From an uncultured Bacteroidaceae bacterium (GTDB lineage Bacteria; Bacteroidota; Bacteroidia; Bacteroidales; P3), in the NCBI GenBank assembly GCA_964616965.1, contig CAZTVH010000002.1, positions 1-43,920 on the forward strand: a stretch of DNA of 43,920 nt. Reading direction: 5' to 3'. This document shows, piece by piece, positions 13,821 to 38,310 of the stretch. The notes under the pieces are model-generated. The model had not been told where the DNA came from. It searched no databases and was given only the letters and a program-made list of their open reading frames with translations. Position numbers and translations under genes: made by a program. Each line of letters starts with the position of its first letter. Position 1 is the stretch's first letter.

Positions 13821-13841
13821 AATGATAAGACTAGATATGTA

Positions 13842-16694: not shown

Positions 16695-16696
16695 CT

Positions 16697-18177: not shown

Positions 18178-19137
18178 CTATCTCCCTTGGAACTCGATGA
18201 TACGCCTGTCGAGGATGCTGCCTTTCTCGAAATTGTGACAGCCACGGAGTACGTCGTTCTCAAGAGGGCGGTCTTCGATAAGGAAGTCGACATATTTAAT
18301 AAATTCGGCACTAAGTGTCTCTGTGGCAGTTTTCCAGAAAAGCGAAGGGGTGTGGTCGACAACATAGTGTGTGATACCGTCTATCGTGTATGTGGGGTGC
18401 TCGATAGAAGTGGGGACACTGGTTTCGACACCGCCATTGCGGTCGCACGAGACATCGATGATGAGGGCACCCCGCTTCATGCGTTGTAGGTCGCGGCGAT
18501 AGATGATGTGGTCGCGTCGCGAGGTGTCCCAAAGAATGGCATTGACCACTACGTCGAAGTCGCCCAGCTCAAGCTGGAAAAGCCGTTCGGTCTTGCGGTC
18601 GTACTGCCTAACCTCGGCCCCCATATAGTTGAGTGTCTTGATAGCCCCACGGGCTATGTTGCCACGTCCTAGCACGGCCGCACGGGTGTTGTAGGGGAAG
18701 ATGCCGTGGCACATGTAGGCGTGGAAGACAGCGGCCTCGCCAGCTATCTCGTTGTTGCGCCAAAAGCTGTGGCGGCCATTTTCGTACATGTCCTCCCAGG
18801 CGAAGGAAGTGAGCCTGCGGGAGATGATTTTGTCGGTGATGTCGCGATTCTGCACTGCATGCACCCACCCAAAAATGGTTTGTCCGTCCAACGACTCTAA
18901 GTATTCGGCATCGCCAATTTTGGGGTCGGCTACAATGTCCATTTGGAGTATCTGGTCGCGAGTGGCGACATTGACACCTCCCCGCCTGTAGTCGTCGTCG
19001 CTGTAGCCCAGCACGTCGCCGTAGCCCGTTTCAATCCATATCTGGCCGGGATGGCGCAACTGCGCTATGTGGCCGGGAATCAGCGTGCGACGCCTTTCGT
19101 TTTCCTTGTGGGATATGGGCAGACCAACTGTTTTCAT
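18178..19137 (-). CDS. Alanine dehydrogenase/PNT-family enzyme resembling N5-(carboxyethyl)ornithine synthase (opine-type synthase)
   Basis: 319 aa. N-terminus MKTVGLPISHKENERRRTLIP and NAD motif VLGRGNIARGAIKTL. Length and architecture fit CEOS (about 313 aa) rather than AlaDH (about 370 aa). Confidence 0.55.
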   Translation of the reverse strand: MKTVGLPISHKENERRRTLIPGHIAQLRHPGQIWIETGYGDVLGYSDDDYRRGGVNVATRDQILQMDIVADPKIGDAEYLESLDGQTIFGWVHAVQNRDITDKIISRRLTSFAWEDMYENGRHSFWRNNEIAGEAAVFHAYMCHGIFPYNTRAAVLGRGNIARGAIKTLNYMGAEVRQYDRKTERLFQLELGDFDVVVNAILWDTSRRDHIIYRRDLQRMKRGALIIDVSCDRNGGVETSVPTSIEHPTYTIDGITHYVVDHTPSLFWKTATETLSAEFIKYVDFLIEDRPLENDVLRGCHNFEKGSILDRRIIEFQGR

Positions 19138-20595: not shown

Positions 20596-21602
20596 GTAAG
20601 AATGTGTGAATTCGAATTAATCTTTTTTAATCTGCTCTTGATGGAGGCCGCCCGGTCTAGGAGAGCAAATCGCAACCGCTGCCACCATAGGGGGGAATGA
20701 TATTGCTGATATATACTATGCGAGACATGGGCCCAGTCAACTTTCGCCAACTGTGCCAGGGCCTGGGCATGGTATTCTCTAGAGAGGTAGAAACGATAGA
20801 GTCCACTGGCGCGCAGGCGGTCAAGGAGGAGTTTGAGGTCGGCGTTGTGCCGTTCCTCCTCCTCCAGAAAGTCCAGATTCCACAACATGTGGTTCTCAGG
20901 CTTGTGCAGGCGACGGGTTGCCCGTTCCTTAGGAGAAAGGTCTTGATAATAATTAGCTAATGGCTGGTTGGCCAATGCCACTTTATGCCTTAACGCAATA
21001 CTAATCCAAAAAACAAAGTCTTCGCCAAACGTGATGCCACTCTTGAAACCACCCGATTCGACAAACAAGCCACGGGGCAGAGCAACCGAGCTCGACGTGA
21101 TGGGCATGCATAGGGTGCGGGCGTATGTCTTGCAATAGTTTATATAACCTCTCTGAAAATCCTTCCCCACACCGATAGGGGCTACCCGTCGCTCTCCATT
21201 CTTCACCAGATAGAAACCTGTGCCATACATCCCCGCCTCTGGACATTCGGCTATCAACTGCGCCATTGTTTCCAAAAAAGTGGGTTCCCACCAGTCGTCG
21301 GCATCCAGAAAGCATACATACTCGCCTTGTGCCATCTCCACACCTCGATTTCGGGCTGCGGTCACTCCCGCATTATCCTGCTGTATCACTCTGCACCTAT
21401 CGTGCCCCCCAATCGATTGGCGCACCACTTGCAAGGAGTTGTCGGTACTTCCATCATCCACCACTATAGTCTCGTAATCGGCATAGGTTTGCGCAAAAAC
21501 GCTGGCGAGTGTCCTAGCCACATAATCCGACTTGTTGTAGAGTGGAATTATCACCGAAAACTTCATGTTCTCAAAGGAGTTTAGTTTTTCTTCGGCAACC
21601 AA
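20592..21602 (-). CDS. GT2 (GT-A) glycosyltransferase
   Basis: FSVIIPLYNKSDYVARTLASVFAQTY, VVDDGSTDNS and FLDADDWW. Alternative start ATG 21566 (MKFSVII). ATGA overlap with the next gene at 20592-20595. Confidence 0.85.
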   Translation of the reverse strand: MVAEEKLNSFENMKFSVIIPLYNKSDYVARTLASVFAQTYADYETIVVDDGSTDNSLQVVRQSIGGHDRCRVIQQDNAGVTAARNRGVEMAQGEYVCFLDADDWWEPTFLETMAQLIAECPEAGMYGTGFYLVKNGERRVAPIGVGKDFQRGYINYCKTYARTLCMPITSSSVALPRGLFVESGGFKSGITFGEDFVFWISIALRHKVALANQPLANYYQDLSPKERATRRLHKPENHMLWNLDFLEEEERHNADLKLLLDRLRASGLYRFYLSREYHAQALAQLAKVDWAHVSHSIYQQYHSPLWWQRLRFALLDRAASIKSRLKKINSNSHILT

Positions 21603-22555
21603 GATCCCTCGTGATGGAGCAGGCGTTTCAGCCGTCGGTTCATCCTATAGGGCAAATTTCGCCAGCCCATCTTGCCGTAATTGTTAGGGTCGAAATAGAT
21701 GGTTTGGAAATCGTAGTCTGCCTGCCGCTGGATGCTGCAGTCGGTAGGGTGCCGCAACGGCAGGATAGGATATGTTTTTCGGGCGGCCATGGGGGAGAAT
21801 GAACTGCTTGTATGCGTGGCATCCTCGCAGAAACCGATGTTGGAGCAGAGGTTCACATTGGGGATGATACCCTTGCCCCCCCTGCGCCATATCGACATCC
21901 AGAACTGCTGGTCCCAGCTAGAGTCATGCAGTCCGTCGAGGTGTATCTCGTCAAGTCGGGCACACCAATATTCGCGTTCCCTCAGCTTTGCACCATAGCG
22001 TTTCAAGCAGCGCGAAAGATCCCGGCGTGAGAAGTCGGCTAACTTGATGTCGAAATACCGCCATGCCCTACGCCATGAAGCCCACGCGCAGAGTGTGTGG
22101 TTCATCTTCGAGAAGTAGTACGACCCGTCGCCATACCGCTTGCCCTCAATTTGCATACTCCCGATAGCCATGACGCTGTTGTCGTTGCGGTATCTGTCGA
22201 GCAATTCCGTCGCAAAGCCGAAAAAGTCCTGATGTGGCACTGCATCGTCTTCCAATATAATGCCCTCTTCCACATGGTCGAAAAACCAAGTGATGGCATA
22301 GGCGGGACCAGGACCGCAACCCATGTTCACCTCCGAGTAGTACCGCTGCACGTCGCACTGCCAGTTCACCATCTCATCAACCACACGCCTCACCTCCTCG
22401 CAACGTTCGCTATCGACAACATTGTTTGGGCGTGCTCCATCCTGAAACACAAACAGCCTTTCGGGGCGACAGGCTTGCAGCGCCTCCAGCACCCGTCTGG
22501 TCTGTTTCGGGCGATTGAACGTTATCAGTAGTATCGGTGTTGTCATTCGATTCAC
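21581..22555 (-). CDS. GT-A fold glycosyltransferase (GNT-I / HlpA-like nucleotide-diphospho-sugar transferase)
   Basis: PILLITFNRPKQTRRVLEAL and ILEDDAVP (EDD motif). GTG start at 22555 overlaps the upstream stop; alternative start ATG 22546. Confidence 0.65.
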   Translation of the reverse strand: MNRMTTPILLITFNRPKQTRRVLEALQACRPERLFVFQDGARPNNVVDSERCEEVRRVVDEMVNWQCDVQRYYSEVNMGCGPGPAYAITWFFDHVEEGIILEDDAVPHQDFFGFATELLDRYRNDNSVMAIGSMQIEGKRYGDGSYYFSKMNHTLCAWASWRRAWRYFDIKLADFSRRDLSRCLKRYGAKLREREYWCARLDEIHLDGLHDSSWDQQFWMSIWRRGGKGIIPNVNLCSNIGFCEDATHTSSSFSPMAARKTYPILPLRHPTDCSIQRQADYDFQTIYFDPNNYGKMGWRNLPYRMNRRLKRLLHHEGSWLPKKN

Positions 22556-23430
22556 AGTTTCACGCCATTCAGATAATAGCTGTCTATCGGCTTTCTTCCA
22601 ATACCTTTGAGTTTGCGATAGCGGTAGTTGGTTTCCCCATCGGTCAACACGGGCACAATGCCCTTTCTTCTAAGTAGCTGCTGCGTTGCCTCTGTACGCC
22701 TGCCCCAAGTGTAGGCAAAGAAAGGAACAAATCTGGGATGCCTGCCCAATATTTCCATGCACTTGTCTACAGACTCTTCAAACTCCTCAATACTCAACTT
22801 CTTAGCATCGGTGTGTTCGTAGCCGTGCATTCCCACTGACACCAAGTTGCCAGACAATTCCCACAACTGGTCGTGGGTGATGTATTGCGGGGCCTCGGCA
22901 TAGCCCTCCCTCTTACTTTTCCCGTCAAGATATTTAGGGTTGATAAAGAGGGTCACTGGTATTTGTTCTTTTTCAAGAAACGGCATGACACCGAGTATCG
23001 ACGCATCTCCGTCATCGCATGTCAACACCGCATACGGTTGTCTCCTGCACCACGGCCTACGCAATCGTTGGTAAGCATCCTGTAGTGATATGAACCTGTA
23101 TTTCGTCTTCAGCGACAGAATAAAGTTCTCAAATTCTTTTGTCTGAGACCAGTCAACCCGCTTGTTTCTACGCTCGTCGAAAGTATCCGACACAGCATGA
23201 AACACAAGCACCTCTATCGGTGCGTAGCACAACTTGTCCCACCATCGGGATATATTCTTAACTGTAAGCCGATTCACATTGAAAAAATAGATAATTGATA
23301 ATAGGCTGGCGCAGTCATTCGTCAATTCACTATTCACCAATTTCAGAAAATCCTCTTCATGTTGTGCCAAAAAGTCTTGTGGCCTCGTGTAACGAAGAGC
23401 TGCTCCAACGCGTAACGCAACGCCTTCCAT
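22552..23430 (-). CDS. Polysaccharide deacetylase (NodB homology, CE4)
   Basis: LTCDDGDAS (TFDDG-type motif 1) and HGYEH. ATG 23430 would overlap the upstream gene by 88 nt. TTG 23340 or GTG 23337, just after that stop, are plausible alternative starts. Confidence 0.75.
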   Translation of the reverse strand: MEGVALRVGAALRYTRPQDFLAQHEEDFLKLVNSELTNDCASLLSIIYFFNVNRLTVKNISRWWDKLCYAPIEVLVFHAVSDTFDERRNKRVDWSQTKEFENFILSLKTKYRFISLQDAYQRLRRPWCRRQPYAVLTCDDGDASILGVMPFLEKEQIPVTLFINPKYLDGKSKREGYAEAPQYITHDQLWELSGNLVSVGMHGYEHTDAKKLSIEEFEESVDKCMEILGRHPRFVPFFAYTWGRRTEATQQLLRRKGIVPVLTDGETNYRYRKLKGIGRKPIDSYYLNGVKL

Positions 23431-24254
23431 TTATTAGTGTCCGCGTACAGGTCTACATGGCATTGCAGGGTTTCGCCATAGACGTGACGGGCTTCGGGGA
23501 TGCGGTTTTTGCGATAAAACTCCTTGTCTATCGGAAGTGTCACGGTGCAATACTGAGCCTTTGATATCTGTGAGGCTATTCCGCCTGCATGGAGGCGGTA
23601 CACCCCGCCCACGAAGGCAAACAGGTAGCCCTTCCCAGCTTTGAGCAGATGATATATCTCATGCTGGTCTCGGTAATACTTGTATCGTTTCTGCCATTCA
23701 GGACTAAACATAGCAGTGCGGAAAAGCATGGTGAGCGGCTGTGTTATCCAGTCCTTGAAAAACATTTCTATGGTGACATCCACCCCCTGCTCTCCTCTCG
23801 CAAAAAGAGGACCACAGAGGTCTGGCTCAAATTGCCCGGTTTGCTCATTGTATCGTTGGCAACGATGGAAACAGATGGAGTATTCCGGATGGCTTTCCAT
23901 AAAGTCTACCTGCTTTTGCAGTTTCAACGGGTCGGTCCAATAATCGTCGCCCTCGCACGAGGCAATATATTTGCCTCTGGCACGGGAATAGTTGAACACT
24001 ATGTCCATCCGTCCCCTGTATCCATGCGTGAATCTGTTTTCTTTTTCATACAGGGGGAACACCTTGTCTGGATACTTTGCCTCATACTCGCGCAGGATAT
24101 CGTCTGTTCCGTCGGTCGAAGCGTCGTCGTGAACCAGTATCTCAAACGGGAAGTCAGTCTTCTGCATTAAGAACCCGTCCAGACATTGGCGAACAAAGCG
24201 TGCGTGGTTGTAGGTCAGGCAGCAGATACTCACTAAAGGTGTCGTTTCATTCAT
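23343..24254 (-). CDS. GT2 glycosyltransferase
   Basis: VSICCLTYNHARFVRQCLDGFLMQ, VHDDASTDGT and CEGDDYW. Confidence 0.85.
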   Translation of the reverse strand: MNETTPLVSICCLTYNHARFVRQCLDGFLMQKTDFPFEILVHDDASTDGTDDILREYEAKYPDKVFPLYEKENRFTHGYRGRMDIVFNYSRARGKYIASCEGDDYWTDPLKLQKQVDFMESHPEYSICFHRCQRYNEQTGQFEPDLCGPLFARGEQGVDVTIEMFFKDWITQPLTMLFRTAMFSPEWQKRYKYYRDQHEIYHLLKAGKGYLFAFVGGVYRLHAGGIASQISKAQYCTVTLPIDKEFYRKNRIPEARHVYGETLQCHVDLYADTNKWKALRYALEQLFVTRGHKTFWHNMKRIF

Positions 24255-25455
24255 ATTCTATCACCACCTTTCTGTCAATCTCATCTTGTAGCGATTCCAT
24301 TGCCTCACGGCTATCGGTGCAAGCCACATAGAACCCAATCCTATTGCCCCCATCCGTAGGCCGACAAATCTTGTCGCCCGGCTTGAAGTTCATCTGCCAA
24401 TAGAGCACTTCTTTGCGTGAGTCCAGCAGGTCGGTACCCCTGACCCTTGCCACAGTCCCCCCGGCTTCGGTTGTGTCGAAAAACTTCAGTACCGCCACTT
24501 TCCCGTTGCGCAAACTCTGAGGATCGATAGTCTCATTTACCTCACCCTTCACAAACATGTCTATCAGCATCCCATAGTTGTCCAAGCCAGTGAGAGCAGG
24601 CACTATGTGCGACGAGATGAGGTTGCCACCCCCGCGTGCTCCGATTTCCAGCAGGTAGAACTCGCCATCTTCATACCTATATTCCGCATGGGTGAAGCCG
24701 AAAGGCAGGCCGGAAAGTTCGACAAACTTATTGTTCACCTCTCTCAGCCGGTCATAGTCGTAGCGGGGGTTGTCGTACGAGAAAAAGAGATAGCTGTCCA
24801 AATTACGGTTGTAATCGAACTGGTTCTTTTCCGAAATGGCAAGACACACATGGCCCTGAGGCAAACGTATCCCGTCGACAGAGAACTCTGACCCAGAAAT
24901 AAACCGTTCGCAAATGACAGCCTTCCGATGATGGGAGTAGCCTATCGAGGCATCGAACAGCCGACGCAGCTGCCCCTCGTCCTCAATGGTGAAAACTCCT
25001 CTGCTGCTGTTGGCATCTATTGGTTTGATAATCATTTTGTGATGCAACGAGTGGAAAAAGTCAACTGCTTCATCCACCGTTTCGCAAACCCTATAGGCCG
25101 GATAGGGCAGACCGTGGTCTCGACAGAAATCCCTCATCAGCGACTTGTCGGTATACAGGCGGGCCATAGGTTCCGTCTGGGAGGGGAGGCCTAACTGTGA
25201 GGAGACAAAAGCCAAGGTCGGGGTTGCGATATCGCATTGGTCCGACATCACTGCCACCACCTCCAGCCGCCTAGCCGCCTCCAAGACTGCATCGCGGTCA
25301 AGGATGTCGGCATACACAATCTCATCGGCATACTTAAAAGCCGGAGCGTCGGGATAGGGATGCAGCACGGCTACACGGTAACCCCGTTCTTTCAGTTTCT
25401 TAATGAGCGGTATCTGCCACACAGTACCCGGCAGAACCATAACAGTCTTACACAT
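24247..25455 (-). CDS. ATP-grasp family ligase
   Basis: 402 aa. MIIKPIDANSSRGVF, ICERFISGSEFSVDG and HAEYRYEDGEFYLLEIGARGGG. Confidence 0.8.
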   Translation of the reverse strand: MCKTVMVLPGTVWQIPLIKKLKERGYRVAVLHPYPDAPAFKYADEIVYADILDRDAVLEAARRLEVVAVMSDQCDIATPTLAFVSSQLGLPSQTEPMARLYTDKSLMRDFCRDHGLPYPAYRVCETVDEAVDFFHSLHHKMIIKPIDANSSRGVFTIEDEGQLRRLFDASIGYSHHRKAVICERFISGSEFSVDGIRLPQGHVCLAISEKNQFDYNRNLDSYLFFSYDNPRYDYDRLREVNNKFVELSGLPFGFTHAEYRYEDGEFYLLEIGARGGGNLISSHIVPALTGLDNYGMLIDMFVKGEVNETIDPQSLRNGKVAVLKFFDTTEAGGTVARVRGTDLLDSRKEVLYWQMNFKPGDKICRPTDGGNRIGFYVACTDSREAMESLQDEIDRKVVIEYE

Positions 25456-25535
25456 ACATTATTATTTTGCAACATGCAAACAGCAACTTGTGAAATAAAG
25501 CGTTCGTGTCGCTGTTCACTAATCACTTATCACAA

Positions 25536-26558
25536 TTAGATAAGGGTTTTGATTTTATTGATATTATGCTCGTCTTCGGCAGTTAGCTCATGCTTGAAAG
25601 TGCCATCGCCTTGGGCGATGCCGAGAACTGAGTGTGCATCGTTATAGTTGTCAACCACCACGTCGCCCCTCTCTCCAACATATCCTCCACTCACCACAGG
25701 TATGCCGCCGATAATTGTCCTGCCCAAACGCGACTTCACCAACTCACTCGTCTCCATCACGTTCACTACCATTCCAGAAACGCCTGCCCTATCGTCGGAG
25801 CGATAGACCCTTGCTCCTCCCCGACGTTGTAGGCTTACGAAATCGGAGGAGAAACTATTGGTGCCGATGTCGAATATCCAATCAAAGTGCATTGCCGAAA
25901 GCTCCTCCTCGTAGGAGGTCTTTTGCTGCAGGCTGCACCCTATAAGAGTATCAAATCTTTCACCCTTCAGGTCAGCGACTGTGTGCAGATAGCGCGACGT
26001 TATCTCCACGTTGCCTCCAGCAGTGGGAAACAGGGGCTGTGGGTATTCTTTCCCATAGACACACACATCCATACCTCGCCCGACCATTTCAAGCAACAGT
26101 TTCGTCGCCAATATGCTGCGACCCACCAGAAGTCTACGGTCGCCAAAGCCTGCCATGCCCGTCTTGTGCTGTTCTATCTCCAGCATGAAGGCTATGGCCG
26201 AGGACACCCATGTCGCATAGTCGCTACAATATGCCACTGTCATACCCGCAGCCGTGGCCAGCTGCGAGGCGGTGCTGCGTATCTGCTCCGAGTTGCTACG
26301 CTTCGCGTCAATGTCCACCATCACCGTGTCGACAATGCCTTCTGCCTGCCCTATGATGAAGGGGAGGTGGCTTTCGTCGCCTAGCGACACAAAGCCAATG
26401 ATATTGGTGACACTCTCGCGCACTGCGGGAATACATGGTTCTCTATCCTCTTCAAGCGTATGCTGGAGCAGGATGAGTACCGAACGCTTGTTTGTGATTT
26501 CCATCAGACGCTCCATGTCTTGGAGCATCTGGCGGTATTTTTCCTTATAGTCTGTCAT
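25536..26558 (-). CDS. Hypothetical protein (orphan to my eye; possible degenerate Rossmann-like core)
   Basis: 340 aa, with codon usage like its neighbours and tight spacing in the operon. RRLLVGRSILATKLLLEMVGRGMDVCVYG resembles a beta-alpha-beta dinucleotide fold, with GRSxxA in place of GxGxxA. Confidence 0.6.
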   Translation of the reverse strand: MTDYKEKYRQMLQDMERLMEITNKRSVLILLQHTLEEDREPCIPAVRESVTNIIGFVSLGDESHLPFIIGQAEGIVDTVMVDIDAKRSNSEQIRSTASQLATAAGMTVAYCSDYATWVSSAIAFMLEIEQHKTGMAGFGDRRLLVGRSILATKLLLEMVGRGMDVCVYGKEYPQPLFPTAGGNVEITSRYLHTVADLKGERFDTLIGCSLQQKTSYEEELSAMHFDWIFDIGTNSFSSDFVSLQRRGGARVYRSDDRAGVSGMVVNVMETSELVKSRLGRTIIGGIPVVSGGYVGERGDVVVDNYNDAHSVLGIAQGDGTFKHELTAEDEHNINKIKTLI

Positions 26559-26602
26559 TTGTTTTCGAAGAAAGTGAACTCATGAATCAAAGCATTCACA
26601 AA

Positions 26603-27604
26603 TCACATATTCACATATTTCAACAGCCTGTCCGTCAGACGGACCCAAAGGCTGTCGCGTCTCTTGAGAGTCGACTGCAGGTATCGGTGCACCCATCTTT
26701 CCCAGAGCGTACGAGAATCCTTCAACCCGTAGGTGCTGCAGAAAACGTCATCCCATATATCCAACCGTCTCAAATCCTTCATTGCATGACGTGGCATACG
26801 CTCCACAATATAGTCGTCCATATAGCATTTCGCCACCTCGGTATCTACCATATCAAGTATATCGAACTGCCGATAGAGCATCTCTTCGGGCAATGGCAGA
26901 ACCGACGTGGGCAGCAGGGTTGAGGCCCTGTAGCTACGGCTGAGTGAGACGGGCGAGCGATGGTTCATCTCCCAGTCGACAAACTGGTAGAACCGTGCCT
27001 TCGATGCCACACGATGAACGTTGAGGTAGGCAAAATGCATCACATAGAAGTCTCTCACATAGTACATCTGCTTCTCCTCTATCGGATAGGGTATACGCAT
27101 GGAGTGCATGTTGCGGACATAGTTGCCGTGGGGTTCCTTTCCGTCATCGTGAAAAAGCCAAGGGTACCATGTCGATTGCCAATATTCAGACTTATTCGGA
27201 CATATCTGCGCCCACCTGAACCAAAAAACATCGCCTGGTTTTGAGTTGAGAATTCTCTGCCAATCCTGGGTGCCAAATGCGTTGGCCGCAAGCACCTCGT
27301 CTGCATCAAGTCCCCACAGCAGCGTGTCTCTTCCATTTGCGATTTCGCGAGCCTTGTTTATTAGCATCGACTGCCGCTCAGACTCGTTGAATTCAGGATT
27401 GTTATTGTCTATCATTACTATCTGTGCTCTATCCTGCGCCGACGCGTTCCTTTGTGCATAATCCTTTATTATTTCGCGTGTGCCGTCGGTGGACATCTGG
27501 TCGGCGATGACGATATAGTCAGCCCATCGGCTGGTGGATTCGAGAAAAGCTCGCAGAACCCACGCTTCGTTGCGGACGGGAGTCATTACTATTTGGATTG
27601 GCAT
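26603..27604 (-). CDS. GT2-like (Glyco_tranf_2_4-type) glycosyltransferase
   Basis: VMTPVRNEAWVLRAFLESTSRWADYIVIADQMSTDGT and GLDADEV. Confidence 0.6.
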   Translation of the reverse strand: MPIQIVMTPVRNEAWVLRAFLESTSRWADYIVIADQMSTDGTREIIKDYAQRNASAQDRAQIVMIDNNNPEFNESERQSMLINKAREIANGRDTLLWGLDADEVLAANAFGTQDWQRILNSKPGDVFWFRWAQICPNKSEYWQSTWYPWLFHDDGKEPHGNYVRNMHSMRIPYPIEEKQMYYVRDFYVMHFAYLNVHRVASKARFYQFVDWEMNHRSPVSLSRSYRASTLLPTSVLPLPEEMLYRQFDILDMVDTEVAKCYMDDYIVERMPRHAMKDLRRLDIWDDVFCSTYGLKDSRTLWERWVHRYLQSTLKRRDSLWVRLTDRLLKYVNM

Positions 27605-27621
27605 GGCTGTGAATTTAAGAG

Positions 27622-28647
27622 TTATACCACTTTGTGAGAATAGGCGGGGACAAACTCAAATTTTTTCCCTTCTTTCAGCTGTTTGGCTGTTATTTCAAAG
27701 AGCTCTTCCGAAGGATTTATGACATTGATTTTGCATACTTCTCCCATTAATACATCGGGGTCGACACCGTATTCTGACGACACTTTTTCCAAAAGTCCCG
27801 TGAAGGAGTCGTGGAAGTTGACCATCCCGACGTTTATCTCTCGTTTGGTACTGCCTTTGAGCAGGAGGTTCCCCACCACCTGCTCGGCCAGCTCCGCCAA
27901 CTGAAGGGCGTTGCAGCCCTGCGGCATGATGCGGGCCTTCTGACAGATGGCAATCATCGACTCCAATTGGGCGTTGCCCGCTCCGCGTCCGAGGCCGCGC
28001 AGAGTCGCGTCGACCATCTCGGCTCCCGCCTGCAAGGCTGCCAGACTATTGGCATTGGCCAATAGGAGGTTGTTATGCCCGTGGAAACCAACCGAGATAT
28101 CGTAGAACTCTTTAATTGCATGCACATACCCTGCCACCTGGTCGGGCAGCATTCCTCCTGCAGAATCAACCAAATAGATGCAGTCGGCACCAGCACCCGC
28201 GATGCCTTCGGCTGTCTTCACCAAATGGTAACGGCTGACGGCGTATGTCTTCATCAGGTTGCAGCAGACATAGAGGCCTAGCGATTTGGCATAACTGATA
28301 CTGTCGAACGTCTTTTCAATCTCGGTGGAGTTGCCCCCTACACGAACAAAGGAGCCCCCGTTATCCTTAAACCATTTCAAGTCGTCCTTTGTGCCACCAC
28401 AACCGGGTATAAAGAACATGCCTATATGCGACTCGCCTTTGCATGGCATACATATGCGCATGAAATCGCTGTCGTCAAGGGGATGCTCCCCCACACGGTA
28501 TGAACCTAGGCCAAGTGTGTTGCCAATCTCAATATACTTGATACCGGCTGCCGACAACTCAGTGACAATCTTACGCAGCGTTTCAGCCTCCCAATGGTTA
28601 TGGGTCACATAGCCTCCGTCGCGTATGGTGCAATCTAGTATATTCAT
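27622..28647 (-). CDS. HMGL-like / DRE-TIM metallolyase (4-hydroxy-2-oxovalerate aldolase-like, pyruvate-utilising)
   Basis: 341 aa. ILDCTIRDGGY and VGFHGHNNLLLANANSLAALQAGAEMVDATLRGLGRGAGNAQLE closely follow the DmpG/BphI-type motifs. Confidence 0.75.
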   Translation of the reverse strand: MNILDCTIRDGGYVTHNHWEAETLRKIVTELSAAGIKYIEIGNTLGLGSYRVGEHPLDDSDFMRICMPCKGESHIGMFFIPGCGGTKDDLKWFKDNGGSFVRVGGNSTEIEKTFDSISYAKSLGLYVCCNLMKTYAVSRYHLVKTAEGIAGAGADCIYLVDSAGGMLPDQVAGYVHAIKEFYDISVGFHGHNNLLLANANSLAALQAGAEMVDATLRGLGRGAGNAQLESMIAICQKARIMPQGCNALQLAELAEQVVGNLLLKGSTKREINVGMVNFHDSFTGLLEKVSSEYGVDPDVLMGEVCKINVINPSEELFEITAKQLKEGKKFEFVPAYSHKVV

Positions 28648-28690: not shown

Positions 28691-29800
28691 CTATCGTATT
28701 AAAAGTCTGTATAGTTTGTCCAAATCCGCCTCGCTAACCTTGCTCCGCTTGCTGTTCTGCTTGTATTGGAGCAGTATTCTGAACAGGCGTAGTTTGCTGA
28801 CAAGGCCCCGCTGCCCTCCGGAATAGTACCTAAATATGAACCCTTCAAACTGAGATAGGTATTGTTTTATGCCGGCTTGGAGGGCTATCTTGTGAAAGAG
28901 CGAACGCTTCAGCACATGTACGAGACGTAGGTTGGGCTGTGATAAGAACAAGTTTCTGAACCGTGGTATGAGCAGGGCATGTTGGTACGGTAGCAATCCG
29001 TATGACACCTCCTTATCCCACCCTTTGGCCGAATTGCTGATGCTGCCACCGTACTGTACCCACACATAGTCGGCCCTATCAACAAAAATGGCTTTGCCAA
29101 ATTGCAAATGGTAGTAGGTGATGACGGTATCGTCATACAGCCGTCCGTATCGTTCGGCAGGGTTCTCGCCCAAGGGGTTGCGCCGAATCATGTAGGTCTG
29201 GTTCAGCCCCAGCAGGCCCCACTGCGCAATGGCGGCAGGGGTGAGTTTTGCCCCGGTTTTGAGCATACTGTGTTGGGGCCACGCAAAGCCTGTCTCCAAG
29301 GATGCGCCGTCGCACACCTGCCAAACCCTTTGTTGGCACATAGCGCAGTCGGGGTTGGCCAACAACGTGTCGAGCTGAAGCTGGTATATGTCGTCGGACT
29401 TCAAATAGTCGTCGGCATCGATATTGACAAAGAACTCACCTCTCGCATTACGGTAGGCGTTGGCCTTGTTCCATCCGCAACGCTCGCTACGCCCAGAGGG
29501 GTTGCACTCGTCGGAGTTGCACTTCACCCCCCGCACTATGGTGGGGTGGAGTTGCTGATATTGCTGGATTAGCTCCCATGTGCCATCGGTGGAACGGTCG
29601 TCTGACACAATCACTTCGTATGGCACATCGAGCCGTTGCGCTAGAATACTGTCGAGGCAACGCGACAAGAGGTGGCGCTGATTGTGAGCAATCACCAATA
29701 CGCTAAGCACTATGTGGTCTGTCTGGTCCAAGGGTGAGGATGCTTGTGTATGTGTTGAAATGTTGATACGTTGATATGTGGTGTGGCAGCCAATTCCCAT
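28691..29800 (-). CDS. GT2 glycosyltransferase
   Basis: LSVLVIAHNQRHLLSRCLDSILAQ, VSDDRSTDGT and NIDADDY. Confidence 0.8.
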   Translation of the reverse strand: MGIGCHTTYQRINISTHTQASSPLDQTDHIVLSVLVIAHNQRHLLSRCLDSILAQRLDVPYEVIVSDDRSTDGTWELIQQYQQLHPTIVRGVKCNSDECNPSGRSERCGWNKANAYRNARGEFFVNIDADDYLKSDDIYQLQLDTLLANPDCAMCQQRVWQVCDGASLETGFAWPQHSMLKTGAKLTPAAIAQWGLLGLNQTYMIRRNPLGENPAERYGRLYDDTVITYYHLQFGKAIFVDRADYVWVQYGGSISNSAKGWDKEVSYGLLPYQHALLIPRFRNLFLSQPNLRLVHVLKRSLFHKIALQAGIKQYLSQFEGFIFRYYSGGQRGLVSKLRLFRILLQYKQNSKRSKVSEADLDKLYRLLIR

Positions 29801-29818: not shown

Positions 29819-31057
29819 CTACTCCCACGACGAACGCAGCACTACCTTAGAGGCACGGTCGTACGGGGTGATGCGCTTGATGAAAGTCTCGTTTTGAGTG
29901 ACACGGAAGCGAACGCAGCTGAGCACCTTGTCAAAAGTGTTATAAGGGTTGCCCAACCAGATGCTCGAATTGTAGCATCCCGGTGCAAAATTGACATTGT
30001 GCATACGGCAGTGGGCCGTGATTTTCTCCCCACGGGTCATGTGCGGGATATGGTAGTCGTCGTCGTAGTTCGAAACATGTGCTATCTGTTTGCCTAGCTC
30101 GTCGGTGATATCGAAACTGATGTCCACCATGTCGGCCTCGCGGACGGCCTCGATGTCGACCTCAATATCGAGGTCTTCGCCAAGGGTGACAGTGCCACTG
30201 GAGAGACGGAAGTCGCGCACACGGACGGCACCATTGCCCGTACGGTTGAAGTCGCCCACGCTTTTCATTCCACCCAAATAGTAGTCCACCACATCGCTCA
30301 CATCGCCCGTCATTTCAACCATACCGTTCTTGAGCAGTATGCCGTGGCGGCAAAGCTGCTGAATGCTCGCCATATTGTGACTCACGAAGAGAACCGTTCG
30401 CCCTTCCGAACTACTGACATCCTGCATCTTGCCGATAGCCTTCTTCTGGAACTCGGCATCGCCAACTGCCAACACCTCGTCGACAACCAGTATTTCAGGT
30501 TCCAAAAATGCGGCCACCGCAAAACCCAGACGCACCGTCATACCTGAACTATATCGTTTGACCGGAGTGTCGATATAGCGCTCGCAGCCGCTGAAGTCGA
30601 CAATCTCGTCCAGCTTGCGACTAATCTCCATCTTGGTCATGCCCAGTATGGCCCCGTTGAGGAAGATATTCTCGCGGCCCGTCATTTCAGGGTGAAATCC
30701 CGTGCCCACCTCCAACAACGAACCTATGCGGCCACGCGCCTTGATGGTGCCGGTTGTGGGTCCGGTAACTTTCGATAGGATTTTCAATAGGGTACTCTTT
30801 CCTGCCCCATTCCTTCCGATTATTCCCACGACATCGCCTTGTTCAACTTTGAAATCGATGTCCTTCAAAGCCCAAACATACTCGCTGTCGGCTTTTTGCG
30901 AACGGTCGTTAACCGACCCCACCTTCAAATAGGGGTCTTCTTTGCCACGAACGTTGACTACCCACCACCGATTGAGGTCGTGGCTGAGTGTACGGGTGGA
31001 TACAAGTCCTAGCCGATACTGCTTGGAGACATTGTTGAATTCTATTGCTGTTGCCAT
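29819..31057 (-). CDS. wzt: Polysaccharide ABC exporter ATP-binding protein (Wzt/TagH type) with C-terminal Wzt_C-like beta-sandwich domain
   Basis: Start revised to ATG 31057 (MATAIEFNNVSKQY), 4 nt after the fcl stop. Walker A GRNGAGKST, signature YSSGM, Walker B ILVVDE. About 165 extra C-terminal residues. Confidence 0.88.
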   Translation of the reverse strand: MATAIEFNNVSKQYRLGLVSTRTLSHDLNRWWVVNVRGKEDPYLKVGSVNDRSQKADSEYVWALKDIDFKVEQGDVVGIIGRNGAGKSTLLKILSKVTGPTTGTIKARGRIGSLLEVGTGFHPEMTGRENIFLNGAILGMTKMEISRKLDEIVDFSGCERYIDTPVKRYSSGMTVRLGFAVAAFLEPEILVVDEVLAVGDAEFQKKAIGKMQDVSSSEGRTVLFVSHNMASIQQLCRHGILLKNGMVEMTGDVSDVVDYYLGGMKSVGDFNRTGNGAVRVRDFRLSSGTVTLGEDLDIEVDIEAVREADMVDISFDITDELGKQIAHVSNYDDDYHIPHMTRGEKITAHCRMHNVNFAPGCYNSSIWLGNPYNTFDKVLSCVRFRVTQNETFIKRITPYDRASKVVLRSSWE

Positions 31058-31061
31058 ATTG

Positions 31062-32003
31062 CTATCTTTCTGCCCGCATAGGGTTGTGTAAAAAATCGTT
31101 ATACGCCAAACGGATGCCCTCGTCAAGTTCGGTCTTGTAGGTCCAACCCAATGCCGTAGCCTTGCTCACATCGAGCAGTTTGCGCGGAGTACCATTGGGG
31201 CGGCTCGCATCCCATCGTATCGTGCCCCCATATCCCACTATATGTGCCACCAGCTCGGCAAGTGCCTTGATGGTGATTTCTTTGCCGGTGCCGGCATTGA
31301 CGGTCTCGTCGCCACTATAGTGGTTCATCAGGAAGACACAGAGATTGGCAAGGTCATCCACATAGAGAAACTCGCGCAGCGGCGACCCGTCGCCCCAGCA
31401 CACCACCTCTTCTACTCCCTGAACCTTAGCCTCGTGGAAACGGCGTATCATGGCGGGGAGCACATGGCTGTGTTCGGGATGGTAATTGTCGTTAGGGCCA
31501 TATAGGTTTGTGGGCATGACGCTTATGTAGTCGGTACCATACTGACGGTTGAGGTATTCGCAGTATTTCAGCCCCGATATCTTTGCGAGGGCGTAGGCCT
31601 CGTTTGTCTTTTCCAACTCGGAGGTCAGCAGGCAGCTCTCCGGCATAGGCTGTGGAGCCAGACGGGGATAGATGCAGCTCGACCCCAAGAACTCAAGTTT
31701 CTTGCACCCGTTGCGCCATGCCGCATGGATGACGTTCATCTCCAACACCATATTCTCATACATGAAGTCGGCCAACGCACTCTGGTTGGCAACGATGCCG
31801 CCCACCTTGGCAGCGGCGAGAAACACATACTCAGGTTTTTCTTCCTCGAAGAATTGCTCCACCGCCTCTTGCCGTGTCAGGTCCAGCTCTGCGTGTGTGC
31901 GCGTTACGAGGTTGCTGTAGCCCTGCCGCTGGAGTTCTCTCACTATGGCAGAACCCACCATGCCCCGGTGGCCAGCCACATATATCTTTGAGTCTTGGTT
32001 CAT
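31062..32003 (-). CDS. fcl: GDP-L-fucose synthase (GDP-4-keto-6-deoxymannose 3,5-epimerase/4-reductase)
   Basis: 313 aa. [26 protein letters not shown] and GSSCIYP. Confidence 0.92.
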
Positions 32004-36200: not shown

Positions 36201-36284
36201 TGCGCAGGTTTGCTATTGCATGATTGCTTGAGGGTTTACTCATTTGAGCCCATAGCCACTCAAACATTTGCACACTTAAAGGCA

Positions 36285-37440: not shown

Positions 37441-38310
37441 TTACACCGTGTCCATGAAACTCTTCTGCGTCTTATTGAAGATGACTATTCCCAAACCGAG
37501 CAATATCACCATAAACACAAAACTATACGCCAGCCAATGCCAGCCGACAAACTCACCCGCGCCCAAAGCCCCATACTTGAATGACTCCAGCACCGGGGTC
37601 ACGGGGTTGAGCCGCATGATGGTGTATAGGTCGAACCCTGCCACCATCTTTCCCTTCACCAAACTAAGCGGATATACAATCGGGGTGGCATACATCCACA
37701 ACGACACCACGAACGAGAACAAAATCTGCAAGTCCCTATACTTAGTGGTCATACTCGATATCACAAGGCCGAATCCCAAAGCCAGCCCCGCCATCATCAG
37801 CACCAACAGGGGAAACAGCAGCACATACCATGTCAAATGCGCATTGCATCCCTGTATGCCATAAATAACATACACCACGATAAAGAGCCCCATCTGGATG
37901 CCAAACCGCAGCAGATTAGACGTCACATTGGCCAGCGGCGTTATCAGACGTGGGAAATAGACCTTGCCAAACAATCCGCTGTTGCTCACAAAGGTATTGG
38001 ACGTACGGCTCAGGCAGTCTGAGAAATACTGCCACATACAGGTACCCGCCAAGTAGAACAACGGCTGGGGAATGCCATCGGTGCCGATGCCGGCAATGCC
38101 GCCAAACACCACCATATACATAACGACCGTCATCACAGGCTGTATCACAAACCACAACGGCCCCAACACTGTCTGCTTATATTGCGTAATGATATTGCGC
38201 TTCACAAATAATGTGTAGAGGTCGCGATACCTCCACAACTCCTTAAAATCAACCGCCAGCAACTTGTCCTTCGGCTTAATGACGGTTGACCATTCTTGCG
38301 TCTCTGTCAT
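37441..38310 (-). CDS. wzm: ABC-2 type polysaccharide exporter permease
   Basis: 289 aa with six hydrophobic helices. N-terminal ELWRYRDLYTLFVKRNIITQYKQTVLGPLW is the classic Wzm/KpsM/TagG opening. Confidence 0.88.
   Translation of the reverse strand: MTETQEWSTVIKPKDKLLAVDFKELWRYRDLYTLFVKRNIITQYKQTVLGPLWFVIQPVMTVVMYMVVFGGIAGIGTDGIPQPLFYLAGTCMWQYFSDCLSRTSNTFVSNSGLFGKVYFPRLITPLANVTSNLLRFGIQMGLFIVVYVIYGIQGCNAHLTWYVLLFPLLVLMMAGLALGFGLVISSMTTKYRDLQILFSFVVSLWMYATPIVYPLSLVKGKMVAGFDLYTIMRLNPVTPVLESFKYGALGAGEFVGWHWLAYSFVFMVILLGLGIVIFNKTQKSFMDTV

What the first reader, a model, noticed from the sequence alone, without database searches (positions are those of the whole stretch)
24247..28647. Four-gene non-sugar tailoring cassette: HMGL-like aldolase, GT2-like protein, orphan protein and ATP-grasp ligase
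A DmpG/BphI-like pyruvate aldolase (DRE-TIM) has no role in ordinary nucleotide-sugar synthesis. Here it sits in an operon with an ATP-grasp ligase and an unclassifiable 340-aa protein with a degenerate dinucleotide-fold motif. A NodB-type deacetylase (22552-23430) lies just downstream. One coherent reading, which is inference only, has three steps. A pyruvate-derived 4-hydroxy-2-oxo acid is built and then reduced or aminated. It is then ligated by the ATP-grasp enzyme onto an amino sugar whose N-acetyl group was removed by the deacetylase. The product would be an unusual N-acyl substituent. I do not recognise this gene combination from any characterised polysaccharide pathway.
Basis: inference. 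Interest (0 to 1): 0.75.

Follow-up and report, generated by a model that had tools for sequence, protein, structure and literature searches.

The report
Aldolase–oxidoreductase–ligase glycan-tailoring module
A rumen Bacteroidales surface-polysaccharide locus carries a conserved, uncharacterised enzyme trio: a pyruvate aldolase, a new NAD(P)-type partner protein that is fused to the aldolase in other bacteria, and an amide-forming ligase, which together most likely build an unusual acid and attach it to a sugar amine.

Summary
The four ORFs exist exactly as described, on the minus strand, and the domain calls are correct. Comparative data change the anatomy.

- **Conserved unit.** It is a trio: a DmpG-clade aldolase (28647..27622), the 340-aa "orphan" (26558..25536) and an L-amino-acid-ligase-type ATP-grasp (25455..24247). 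They are adjacent in all 13 related Bacteroidales loci tested. A GT2 (24254..23343) follows in 12 of 13 and a NodB deacetylase in 11 of 13.
- **GT2-like gene.** The gene at 27604..26603 is a lineage-specific insertion, seen only in the closest relative.
- **Aldolase.** It keeps Arg, Asp and His-x-His, but DmpG His21 is Tyr and Tyr291 is His, and this holds across the clade.
- **Orphan.** It founds a family with no Pfam model (720 representatives). Its central domain is an NAD(P)-binding Rossmann domain. Many lineages fuse it to the C-terminus of the aldolase, and one fuses it to NeuB.
- **Wider distribution.** The aldolase clade sits next to ATP-grasp ligases, DegT aminotransferases, NodB or PIG-L deacetylases and nonulosonic-acid genes.

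Best reading (inferred): pyruvate plus an aldehyde gives a 4-hydroxy-2-oxo acid. The orphan reductively aminates or reduces it. The ATP-grasp then amide-links the product to a sugar amine exposed by deacetylation. I found no paper describing this module. The chemistry is unproven.

The parts
27622..28647 (-). Class-II (metal-dependent) pyruvate aldolase of a distinct DmpG-like clade with the signature 'RDG[GS]Y ... FHGH ... FHDSF'.
   Evidence: PF00682 at 1.1e-30, NF006049 at 244.5 bits (cutoff 229), TIGR03217 at 213.9 bits (cutoff 286). PDB 4jn6 at 1.2e-45 and 1nvm at 1.5e-32. R9, D10, H189 and H191 are invariant. Tyr13 replaces DmpG His21 in 121 of 123 sequences. His279 replaces Tyr291 in 126 of 126. 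Phe78 replaces BphI Leu87. There is a sub-threshold DmpG_comm hit at residues 270-325 (E 0.055).
26603..27604 (-). GT2-like protein with a DxD motif ('DAD') and an uncharacterised C-terminal half. It is a lineage-specific insertion between aldolase and orphan, not a core member. The start is probably Met7 (27586).
   Evidence: Weak PF13704 and PF00535 hits. 85% identical gene at the same position only in L022. No homologue in 13 other trio loci or in the 80 aldolase-seeded loci. The NCBI gene call is 327 aa.
25536..26558 (-). Orphan: founding member of a family with no Pfam model. It is a two-domain NAD(P)-oxidoreductase-like partner of the aldolase.
   Evidence: No Pfam, NCBIfam or PDB sequence hits. 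The profile search finds 720 representatives, including about 700-aa aldolase::orphan fusions and one orphan::NeuB fusion. Among 93 members, 44 hit Shikimate_DH, 42 hit 2-Hacid_dh_C and 17 hit ELFV_dehydrog on the central Rossmann domain. The AF2 model has pLDDT 96.7 and pTM 0.90. Best Foldseek matches are Glu/Phe dehydrogenases (TM 0.38-0.44) and D-2-hydroxyacid dehydrogenases.
24247..25455 (-). ATP-grasp amide ligase of the L-amino-acid-ligase type.
   Evidence: PF18603 LAL_C2 at 48 bits, PF13535, and PDB 3vot at 6e-16. It is the most conserved gene of the trio (64-78% identity) and follows the orphan in 13 of 13 Bacteroidales loci. An LAL_C2 ATP-grasp lies within a few kb of the aldolase in 39 of 54 loci of at least 8 kb.
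23343..24254 (-). GT2 glycosyltransferase. Its start overlaps the ATP-grasp stop by 8 nt, so it is probably translationally coupled. It is a co-conserved part of the module.
   Evidence: PF00535 at 6.8e-18. A homologue follows the ATP-grasp directly in 12 of 13 loci.
22552..23430 (-). NodB-type (CE4) deacetylase with no obvious signal peptide. The true start is probably downstream of 23430.
   Evidence: PF01522 at 38.6 bits. The 'CDDGD' and 'HGYEH' metal motifs are present. A homologue lies within about 8 kb in 11 of 13 loci. Homologues are 240-252 aa.
29819..31126 (-). Context: Wzt ABC-transporter ATPase with a C-terminal carbohydrate-binding domain. Together with Wzm (37441-38310) it marks the locus as an ABC-transporter-dependent glycan pathway.
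   Evidence: PF00005 plus PF14524 Wzt_C, and PF01061 for Wzm. Wzt is syntenic in L003-L011 and L022.
18178..19137 (-). Context: alanine-dehydrogenase/PNT-like NAD enzyme at the distal end of the locus. It is an occasional accessory with an unresolved role.
   Evidence: PF01262 and PF05222. Present at the same position only in L011 (78% identity) and L022.

Best explanation
The region encodes a conserved glycan-tailoring module inside a Wzm/Wzt (ABC-transporter-dependent) polysaccharide locus of a rumen Bacteroidales bacterium.

Proposed steps:
1. The DmpG-clade aldolase condenses the pyruvate enolate (from pyruvate, or from oxaloacetate as RhiG does) with a small aldehyde. The product is a 4-hydroxy-2-oxo acid. 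This is inferred from the conserved metal and pyruvate ligands.
2. The 340-aa orphan is an NAD(P)-dependent partner that works in physical contact with the aldolase, because the two are one polypeptide in many other bacteria. It converts the 2-oxo group, most likely by reductive amination to a gamma-hydroxy-alpha-amino acid, or alternatively by reduction to a 2,4-dihydroxy acid. This is inferred.
3. The LAL-type ATP-grasp activates that acid as an acyl phosphate and forms an amide with a free sugar amine. This is inferred.
4. The amine is provided by the translationally coupled GT2, which installs an N-acetyl-hexosamine, and the cytoplasmic NodB deacetylase, which strips the acetyl group. In other loci a DegT aminotransferase provides the amine instead. 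This is inferred from co-conservation.

The GT2-like gene between aldolase and orphan is a recent insertion and not part of the mechanism.
For: Shown:
- The trio is adjacent in 13 of 13 orphan-seeded Bacteroidales loci. GT2 is present in 12 of 13 and NodB in 11 of 13.
- The aldolase ligands R9, D10, H189 and H191 are invariant.
- Aldolase::orphan fusions occur in many lineages, and one orphan::NeuB fusion exists. NeuB is another enzyme that makes a 4-hydroxy-2-oxo (3-deoxy-2-ulosonic) acid.
- The orphan family's central domain is an NAD(P) Rossmann domain. The confident model is most similar to Glu/Phe/Leu dehydrogenases and D-2-hydroxyacid dehydrogenases, all of which act on the C2 carbonyl of 2-oxo acids.
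- The ATP-grasp carries the LAL_C2 domain of L-amino-acid ligases.
- In aldolase-seeded loci of at least 8 kb, an ATP-grasp is nearby in 39 of 54, DegT in 27 and NeuB in 16.
- Two unrelated deacetylase families, NodB and PIG-L, flank the pair in different lineages.
- Class I/II/III aminotransferases lie within 5 kb in 11 of 22 orphan-absent loci but in 5 of 32 orphan-present loci (Fisher p = 0.014). This fits the orphan replacing a 2-oxo-acid transaminase.
- No UDP-sugar 6-dehydrogenase appears in any Pfam-annotated trio locus.

Precedent: the aldolase RhiG makes 2-keto-4-hydroxy-5-phosphonopentanoate (PMC8942020). From my own knowledge, the rest of that pathway is transamination followed by ATP-grasp ligation.
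Against: - No enzyme activity or glycan structure is known for any member.
- The Foldseek TM-scores are only 0.26-0.44 at about 10% identity. The orphan is therefore not a member of any solved dehydrogenase family, and its catalytic residues cannot be mapped.
- The window's own orphan has a degenerate Gly motif (G-R-S-I-L-A), so NAD(P) binding is assumed from homology.
- Many orphan-containing loci also carry DegT, so the amination step is ambiguous.
- The aminotransferase anticorrelation is not corrected for phylogeny.
- The catalytic His21 of DmpG is replaced by Tyr, so the chemistry may differ from simple DmpG-type aldol addition.
- The aldehyde is unknown.
- The distantly related ATP-grasps next to other aldolase clade members share only about 26% identity with the window's enzyme.
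Confidence: 0.5

Rival explanations
1. The orphan is a functional analogue of DmpF. It produces a reactive aldehyde by NAD(P)-dependent redox chemistry and passes it through a protein tunnel to the aldolase. The 4-hydroxy-2-oxo acid product is then processed by other enzymes (DegT or other aminotransferases) before ATP-grasp ligation.
For: - The fusion order is aldolase, then DmpG_comm-like domain, then orphan. This places the orphan where DmpF docks on DmpG.
- The two DmpG tunnel-gate and catalytic residues, His21 and Tyr291, are both retained in swapped form (Tyr13 and His279) across the clade.
- NeuB, the other fusion partner, also consumes an aldehyde.
- DegT is enriched in orphan-present loci, 17 of 32 against 4 of 22.
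Against: - The orphan is unrelated to DmpF-type acylating aldehyde dehydrogenases.
- Its only candidate thiol, Cys208, is conserved in just 24 of 118 family members.
- Structural neighbours act on 2-oxo, 2-hydroxy or 2-amino acids, not on aldehydes.
- Window-type loci have no aminotransferase near the trio, so a 2-oxo acid would be left unprocessed.
Confidence: 0.2
2. The amide runs the other way. The ATP-grasp activates a sugar carboxylate (a uronic acid or the C1 carboxyl of an ulosonic acid) and couples it to the amino group of the amino acid made by the aldolase and the orphan. This would resemble the amino-acid amides of uronic acids known in many O-antigens.
For: From my own knowledge, ATP-grasp amidoligases that decorate glucuronic acid are known in Campylobacter jejuni capsule biosynthesis. 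A UDP-ManNAc dehydrogenase and a 2-epimerase lie in the same window at 9869-12380. NeuB co-occurs with the aldolase in 16 of 54 loci.
Against: - No UDP-sugar 6-dehydrogenase lies in any of the annotated trio loci.
- The window's dehydrogenase belongs to the neighbouring Wza/Wzc locus and is not syntenic with the trio.
- Deacetylases from two unrelated families co-occur with the module, which points to a sugar amine as acceptor.
- The C. jejuni enzyme belongs to a different ATP-grasp subtype (from memory, not tested here).
Confidence: 0.12
3. The aldolase extends a sugar aldehyde by three carbons. This would make a higher 3-deoxy-2-ulosonic acid in a pyruvate-dependent counterpart of NeuB or KdsA chemistry. 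The orphan and the ATP-grasp would then tailor that sugar acid.
For: The orphan domain is fused either to this aldolase or to NeuB. The aldolase clade often lies in nonulosonic-acid clusters.
Against: - In L021, and in many of the aldolase loci that also contain NeuB, NeuB and a CMP-transferase sit beside the aldolase, so the aldolase is not replacing NeuB.
- No cytidylyltransferase accompanies the trio in the window or in the Bacteroidales loci.
- Phe78 and Ile80 occupy the positions of BphI Leu87 and Leu89 that line the aldehyde pocket, which suggests a small pocket (PMC3962088).
Confidence: 0.08

Closest known systems
DmpFG / BphIJ / HsaFG aldolase-dehydrogenase complexes (4-hydroxy-2-oxovalerate aldolase plus acylating acetaldehyde dehydrogenase)
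   Same: DRE-TIM barrel with a C-terminal communication-like domain. The Arg/Asp/His-x-His pyruvate and metal site is kept. There is a dedicated NAD(P)-type partner protein, shown here by adjacency and by natural fusions.
   Different: The partner is an unrelated family with no Semialdhyde_dh or AcetDehyd-dimer domain and no conserved Cys. His21 and Tyr291 are swapped to Tyr and His. Leu87 is Phe. The equivalog model TIGR03217 is not reached. The context is glycan biosynthesis, not aromatic or steroid catabolism.
RhiG step of rhizocticin/plumbemycin biosynthesis (HMGL-like aldolase making 2-keto-4-hydroxy-5-phosphonopentanoate; PMC8942020)
   Same: A DmpG-like aldolase is used anabolically to build a 4-hydroxy-2-oxo acid. 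That acid is aminated and then joined by ATP-grasp L-amino-acid ligases (the later steps are from my own knowledge).
   Different: No PEP mutase or phosphonopyruvate decarboxylase is present here. The product is expected on a polysaccharide rather than in a peptide antibiotic. A dehydrogenase-like partner stands in place of, or alongside, an aminotransferase.
L-amino-acid ligases (BL00235/3VOT, BacD/YwfE, RizA, TabS)
   Same: ATP-grasp fold plus the LAL_C2 C-terminal domain. Best PDB hit is 3vot at 6e-16.
   Different: Low identity. The enzyme is embedded between an aldolase pair and a glycosyltransferase, so the nucleophile is probably a sugar amine rather than a second amino acid.
'Glycosylate, deacetylate, re-acylate' logic: NodC/NodB/NodA (Nod factors), MshA/MshB/MshC (mycothiol), BshA/BshB/BshC (bacillithiol)
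   Same: The gene logic is a GT, then a GlcNAc deacetylase (NodB type here, PIG-L/LmbE type in the fusion loci), then attachment of a new acyl or aminoacyl group to the freed amine.
   Different: The acyl donor would be made in situ by an aldolase pair and activated by an ATP-grasp. The known systems use an acyl-ACP transferase or a Cys-tRNA-synthetase-like ligase. The acceptor here is a polysaccharide.
Vibrio cholerae O1 O-antigen (perosamine N-acylated with 2,4-dihydroxybutanoate, ABC-transporter dependent; from my own knowledge)
   Same: A Wzm/Wzt-exported glycan whose amino sugar carries a short hydroxy-acid amide. Some related loci (L016) combine GMD, DegT, Wzm/Wzt and this module.
   Different: The acid-forming genes (rfbK-O) are completely different. 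The window itself has no DegT in this locus.

Membership tests
4-hydroxy-2-oxovalerate aldolase (DmpG/BphI/HsaF, EC 4.1.3.39) | HMGL-like DRE-TIM barrel with metal ligands Asp18, His200, His202 and enolate-stabilising Arg17 (DmpG numbering) | tested here: met
   PF00682 at 1.1e-30. R9, D10, H189 and H191 align with these residues and are invariant in 123-126 clade members.
4-hydroxy-2-oxovalerate aldolase (DmpG/BphI/HsaF, EC 4.1.3.39) | Catalytic His21 and stereo-controlling Tyr291 (BphI His20 and Tyr290) | tested here: not met
   His21 is Tyr13 in 121 of 123 sequences. Tyr291 is His279 in 126 of 126. The role of Tyr290 is taken from PMC3962088.
4-hydroxy-2-oxovalerate aldolase (DmpG/BphI/HsaF, EC 4.1.3.39) | Curated model cut-offs | tested here: inconclusive
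   Subfamily model NF006049 scores 244.5 bits, above its cutoff of 229. Equivalog TIGR03217 scores 213.9 bits, below its cutoff of 286.
4-hydroxy-2-oxovalerate aldolase (DmpG/BphI/HsaF, EC 4.1.3.39) | Adjacent DmpF-type acylating acetaldehyde dehydrogenase and a meta-cleavage or steroid catabolic context | tested here: not met
   No such gene exists in the window. The neighbours are glycosyltransferases, Wzm/Wzt and a deacetylase.
4-hydroxy-2-oxovalerate aldolase (DmpG/BphI/HsaF, EC 4.1.3.39) | DmpG communication domain (PF07836) | tested here: inconclusive
   The window protein scores 13.5 bits (E 0.055) at residues 270-325, below the cutoff of 27. Fused relatives reach 25-38 bits.
L-amino-acid ligase type ATP-grasp | ATP-grasp fold plus LAL_C2 domain | tested here: met
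   PF18603 at 48 bits (cutoff 29.4), PF13535 at 38.9 bits (cutoff 27), PDB 3vot at 6e-16.
L-amino-acid ligase type ATP-grasp | ATP-dependent ligation of two free L-amino acids | not testable with these tools
   This needs an enzyme assay. The context suggests a sugar amine as nucleophile.
Glu/Leu/Phe/Val (ELFV) amino-acid dehydrogenases | ELFV_dehydrog domains with the catalytic Lys/Asp of the N-terminal domain | tested here: not met
   The window orphan has no Pfam hit. Only 17 of 93 family members hit PF00208 weakly, on the Rossmann part. Foldseek TM is 0.38-0.44 at about 10% identity. The conserved residues K24, R47, D77, D82 and K86 do not follow the ELFV Lys-Lys-Asp order (comparison from my own knowledge).
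D-isomer-specific 2-hydroxyacid dehydrogenases | 2-Hacid_dh_C NAD domain with the Arg-Glu-His catalytic triad | tested here: not met
   42 of 93 members hit PF02826 weakly, and the window protein does not. No His is among the columns conserved in at least 80% of 118 family members. TM is 0.26-0.31.
NAD(P)-binding Rossmann oxidoreductases (general) | A beta-alpha-beta unit with a GxGxxG/A motif | tested here: inconclusive
   The family consensus is G146 (95%), G148 (47%) and G/A151 (66%). The window has G-R-S-I-L-A. Many Rossmann Pfam families hit the relatives. The model shows a strand at 141-145 followed by a helix at 149-160.
CE4 / NodB polysaccharide deacetylase | PF01522 with the Asp-Asp and His-x3-His metal and catalytic motifs | tested here: met
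   38.6 bits (cutoff 23.1). 'CDDGD' and 'HGYEH' are present.
GT2 glycosyltransferase (for the 26603-27604 gene) | GT-A N-terminal domain with a DxD motif | tested here: inconclusive
   PF13704 at 32.8 bits (cutoff 27.5) and PF00535 at 32.4 bits (cutoff 23.3), over the first ~150 residues only. 'DAD' is present at residues 100-102. The C-terminal ~180 aa match nothing.

The most novel reading that the evidence does not exclude
The aldolase and the orphan form a new kind of channelling bienzyme. It would be a biosynthetic counterpart of DmpFG built with an unrelated NAD(P) partner, and it is covalently fused in many phyla. It would manufacture a previously unseen gamma-hydroxy amino acyl (or dihydroxyacyl) decoration on amino sugars and nonulosonic acids. 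In Wzm/Wzt loci with a Wzt carbohydrate-binding domain, such as this one, the decoration could be the non-reducing-end cap that terminates chain growth and licenses export.
Probability: 0.15. Interest if true: 0.8.

Novelty: new variant of a known kind. Interest (0 to 1): 0.66.

Why it matters
Non-acetyl N-acyl and aminoacyl groups on bacterial surface sugars shape antigenicity, phage recognition and host interaction. The genes that make most of them are unknown.

This module has three useful properties:
- It is widespread. It occurs in rumen and gut Bacteroidales and, in fused form, in marine, soil and freshwater bacteria, often beside nonulosonic-acid genes.
- It includes a protein family with no Pfam model and no close solved structure.
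- It reuses a catabolic aldolase-dehydrogenase architecture for biosynthesis.

Defining its product would annotate hundreds of glycan loci. It would also supply a new pyruvate aldolase clade with a His/Tyr-swapped active site, and possibly opposite C4 stereochemistry, for biocatalysis.

Tried and rejected
- **Four-gene unit including the GT2-like gene.** Rejected. The gene is found only in the closest relative, L022.
- **Orphan as a DmpF-like thiol-dependent aldehyde dehydrogenase acting through invariant Cys208.** Rejected. Cys is present in only 24 of 118 family members.
- **Sequence searches of the orphan against the PDB.** Nothing was found with either the single sequence or the profile.
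- **First shallow AF2 model (26 sequences, pLDDT 79.7).** It was replaced by a deep-alignment model (pLDDT 96.7). The better model did not improve the PDB matches, so the family has no close solved relative.
- **A 323-aa gene upstream of the L021 fusion as a GT2-like homologue.** Rejected (E 1.7).
- **Literature searches.** Six searches combined this aldolase with ATP-grasp, O-antigen, nonulosonic or polysaccharide terms. Five returned no papers and one returned only unrelated ones. The Leptospira pan-genome paper only lists an HOA aldolase as lineage-specific.
- **Sigma-70 promoter and terminator scan of 17.5-32.5 kb.** Uninformative for a Bacteroidales operon.
- **Ordinary catabolic aldolase that sits here by chance.** Rejected on the basis of synteny across more than 50 loci.
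- **The third homologous-protein search (on the ATP-grasp or the GT2-like gene).** Deliberately not spent, because it would not discriminate between the hypotheses.

Full report
**Observation**

All genes between about 18 and 39.5 kb of the window are on the minus strand. They form one polysaccharide locus, in transcription order:
- initiating sugar transferase (39537..38350)
- Wzm (38310..37441)
- GtrA-like protein and a small GT2
- a 494-aa protein with no Pfam match
- Glf
- GMD and a GDP-fucose-synthase-like reductase
- Wzt with a Wzt_C carbohydrate-binding domain (31126..29819)
- GT2 (29800..28691)

The reported genes follow, and then a GT2, a NodB deacetylase, an unknown 324-aa protein, a GT2, a PMT_2-like protein and an AlaDH/PNT-like enzyme.

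- **Aldolase.** HMGL-like, at subfamily level in the 4-hydroxy-2-oxovalerate aldolase group. NF006049 scores 244.5 bits against a cutoff of 229, but the equivalog TIGR03217 scores 213.9 against 286. The best solved structure is HsaF, 4jn6, at 1.2e-45.
- **GT2-like protein.** Only weak N-terminal GT2 hits.
- **340-aa protein.** No Pfam, NCBIfam or PDB sequence match.
- **ATP-grasp.** It carries the LAL_C2 domain of L-amino-acid ligases.

**What is conserved**

The orphan has only 30 close clusters among 5.8 billion proteins, all about 340 aa, from Bacteroidales metagenome bins. It has 10 loci among 185,579 species genomes, mostly rumen Bacteroidales MAGs.

In every Bacteroidales locus retrieved, the aldolase, the orphan and the ATP-grasp are directly adjacent, in that order and only a few bases apart. 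For loci with at least 3 kb of flank the counts are:
- ATP-grasp: 13 of 13
- the downstream GT2 (window 24254..23343, overlapping the ATP-grasp stop by 8 nt): 12 of 13
- NodB deacetylase: 11 of 13
- DegT aminotransferase: 5 of 13, and immediately upstream of the aldolase in L002, L003, L004 and L012

The GT2-like gene between aldolase and orphan is found only in the closest relative, L022. There it is 85% identical and the whole locus is syntenic. It is absent everywhere else. It is therefore a recent insertion. The 'four-gene cassette' should be redrawn as a trio plus the GT2 and the deacetylase.

**The aldolase**

Alignment with DmpG (1nvm), HsaF (4jn6) and two other solved aldolases shows that the enolate-stabilising Arg and the metal ligands are kept. 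They are R9, D10, H189 and H191, and they are invariant in 123-126 clade members.

Two hallmark residues are exchanged. DmpG His21 is Tyr13 in 121 of 123 sequences, and Tyr291 is His279 in 126 of 126. The position of BphI Leu87 is Phe78. In BphI, Leu87 and Tyr290 flank C4 of the substrate, and an L87W/Y290F enzyme has inverted 4R specificity (PMC3962088). The clade may therefore differ in C4 stereochemistry or aldehyde preference. That is inference.

The same 'RDGGY' motif occurs in the unpublished Bacteroides vulgatus structure 3dxi. A communication-domain-like segment is detectable only below threshold in the window protein.

**The orphan**

A profile search of 1.84 billion representatives finds 720 relatives. 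Three results define the family.

1. *Fusions.* Many relatives are about 700-aa proteins in which an HMGL-like aldolase, often with a DmpG_comm domain, is fused to the N-terminus of the orphan domain. One relative is an orphan::NeuB fusion. A distant Arcobacter homologue sits beside a NeuB fusion protein. These fusions show that the aldolase and the orphan act together. NeuB, like the aldolase, joins a C3 donor to an aldehyde and yields a 4-hydroxy-2-oxo acid.

2. *Cofactor domain.* The central domain of relatives hits NAD(P) Rossmann families. Of 93 members, 44 hit Shikimate_DH, 42 hit 2-Hacid_dh_C, 40 hit F420_oxidored and 17 hit ELFV_dehydrog. The family consensus at residues 146-151 is GxGxxG/A, where the window has G-R-S-I-L-A.

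3. *Structure.* A deep-alignment AlphaFold model is very confident (pLDDT 96.7, pTM 0.90). Even so, its best PDB matches are only fold-level. Glu/Phe dehydrogenases give TM 0.38-0.44 and D-2-hydroxyacid dehydrogenases give TM 0.26-0.31, at about 10% identity.

The orphan is thus a new two-domain NAD(P)-oxidoreductase-like family. Its nearest structural neighbours all work on the C2 carbonyl of 2-oxo acids. The subfamily-invariant Cys208 is not conserved family-wide (24 of 118), which argues against a DmpF-type thiohemiacetal mechanism.

**Wider context of the aldolase clade**

The aldolase clade is much larger than the orphan family, with 639 hits at E <= 1e-20. I examined 54 loci of at least 8 kb. 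They came from the orphan- and aldolase-seeded scans and from contig look-ups. Genes found near the aldolase:
- ATP-grasp: 39 loci
- orphan, adjacent or fused: 32
- DegT: 27
- Wzt: 17
- NeuB: 16
- NodB: 13
- PIG-L deacetylase: 7

Examples:
- L021 is a pseudaminic/legionaminic-type cluster (PseB-like, DegT, GNAT, CMP-transferase, NeuB). It also has an aldolase::orphan fusion followed by an LAL_C2 ATP-grasp, all in a Wzt_C locus.
- L018 has, in order, a PIG-L deacetylase, the aldolase::orphan fusion, a GNAT, a methyltransferase, a FemAB-like protein, a TylF-type methyltransferase and DegT.
- L016 has, in order, GMD, a reductase, two Wzm, Wzt, a GT, the ATP-grasp, the aldolase, an orphan-like protein and DegT.

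The module therefore always sits beside enzymes that create or expose a sugar amine. Two unrelated deacetylase families can play that part. No UDP-sugar 6-dehydrogenase appears in any annotated trio locus.

Class I/II/III aminotransferases, the kinds that act on 2-oxo acids, lie within 5 kb in 11 of 22 orphan-absent loci but in only 5 of 32 orphan-present loci (Fisher p = 0.014, not corrected for phylogeny). This is what is expected if the orphan substitutes for a 2-oxo-acid transaminase.

**Mechanism**

The best-supported reading has four steps:
1. Aldol addition of pyruvate to a small aldehyde gives a 4-hydroxy-2-oxo acid.
2. The aldolase-bound orphan converts C2 with NAD(P)H. Reductive amination to a gamma-hydroxy-alpha-amino acid is the more likely outcome, which suits an L-amino-acid-ligase-type enzyme. 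Reduction to a 2,4-dihydroxy acid is the alternative.
3. The ATP-grasp activates the acid as an acyl phosphate and forms an amide with a sugar amine.
4. In this locus the amine comes from the coupled GT2 and the cytoplasmic NodB deacetylase.

Only the gene associations, the ligand conservation, the fusions and the fold class are shown. Every chemical step is inferred.

Rivals:
- The orphan is a DmpF-like aldehyde supplier. The fusion topology and the retained gate residues favour this. The lack of a conserved thiol and the structural neighbours argue against it.
- The ligation runs in reverse, onto a uronic or ulosonic carboxylate. No dehydrogenase is present in the loci, and the deacetylases point to an amine acceptor.
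- The aldolase extends a sugar by three carbons. NeuB co-occurs rather than being replaced, and the aldehyde pocket looks small.

**Comparison with known systems**

The aldolase works like DmpG, BphI and HsaF but fails three defining features of that family: the catalytic His, the Tyr and the DmpF partner with its catabolic context. I therefore file it as a sister clade rather than a member.

The pathway logic most resembles two precedents. One is RhiG in rhizocticin biosynthesis (PMC8942020), an anabolic DmpG-like aldolase whose product is aminated and then joined by ATP-grasp ligases. The other is the 'glycosylate, deacetylate, re-acylate' schemes of Nod factors, mycothiol and bacillithiol. 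Six literature searches returned no paper linking this aldolase clade with ATP-grasp ligases or glycan tailoring.

**Verdict**

The feature is a new variant of a known kind, namely biosynthesis of an N-acyl or aminoacyl glycan substituent. It contains a new protein family and a repurposed aldolase-partner architecture. Interest is about 0.66. It is limited by the absence of any biochemical or structural-glycan data, and raised by the breadth of distribution and the direct testability.

Noticed in passing
window 4213-17710 (minus strand): A second, separate capsule-type locus lies directly downstream. It contains DegT (4213-5310), a Wzc-like tyrosine-kinase/chain-length protein (5592-8099), Wza (8152-8931), UDP-GlcNAc 2-epimerase (9869-11068), a UDP-ManNAc-type dehydrogenase (11079-12380), two hexapeptide acyltransferases, DUF354, a weak AMP-binding/CapK-like protein (14378-15778), a GT4 and an epimerase. 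It is not syntenic with the trio in other genomes.
   Followed up: partly
window 34716-37419 and 19198-20595 (minus strand): A GtrA-like protein (36967-37419), a 240-aa GT2 (36285-37007), a 494-aa protein with no Pfam match (34716-36200) and a PMT_2/GT-C-like 465-aa protein (19198-20595) occur in this locus. Together they suggest Und-P-sugar-dependent periplasmic side-chain glycosylation on top of the Wzm/Wzt pathway.
   Followed up: no
window 18178-19137 (minus strand): An alanine-dehydrogenase/PNT-family enzyme (319 aa) closes the locus. It recurs at the same place only in L011 (78% identity) and L022. It could be a second 2-oxo-acid/amine redox enzyme, for example an opine-type N-carboxyalkyl synthase. 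Its link to the trio is unresolved.
   Followed up: partly
window 21581-22555 (minus strand): A 324-aa protein with no Pfam or NCBIfam match lies between the NodB deacetylase and the next GT2. Weak homologues (22-26% identity) occur downstream of the module in L003 and L004, and a 321-aa gene sits at the same position in L022.
   Followed up: no
L014 (Arcobacter iocasae NZ_CP090177.1), locus coordinates 5526-14844: The most distant orphan homologue (23% identity, 363 aa, weak Shikimate_DH and 2-Hacid_dh_C hits) lies in a nonulosonic-acid cluster. It sits directly after an unusual FAD/GLF-like::NeuB fusion protein (798 aa) and before a methyltransferase, a CMP-transferase and a FemAB-like GNAT.
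   Followed up: partly
L017 12237-14947; L006 13094-17928: Several trio loci insert an AMP-binding adenylating enzyme, an 80-aa ACP-sized ORF, GNAT-like proteins and DUF1919 between the GT2 and the deacetylase. This hints at a second, carrier-protein-dependent acylation in those strains.
   Followed up: no
window 40222-42378 and 42464-42552: Two plus-strand ORFs without Pfam matches (40222-41220 and 41224-42306) are overlapped by a 558-aa minus-strand ORF (40702-42378) in a region of raised GC (0.58). A tRNA-Ser(GGA) follows at 42464-42552. I did not resolve which strand is coding.
   Followed up: no
window 22552-23430: The deacetylase ORF, taken from its first ATG, overlaps the upstream GT2 by 88 nt and is about 45 aa longer than its homologues (240-252 aa). 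The real start is probably an internal non-ATG codon.
   Followed up: partly
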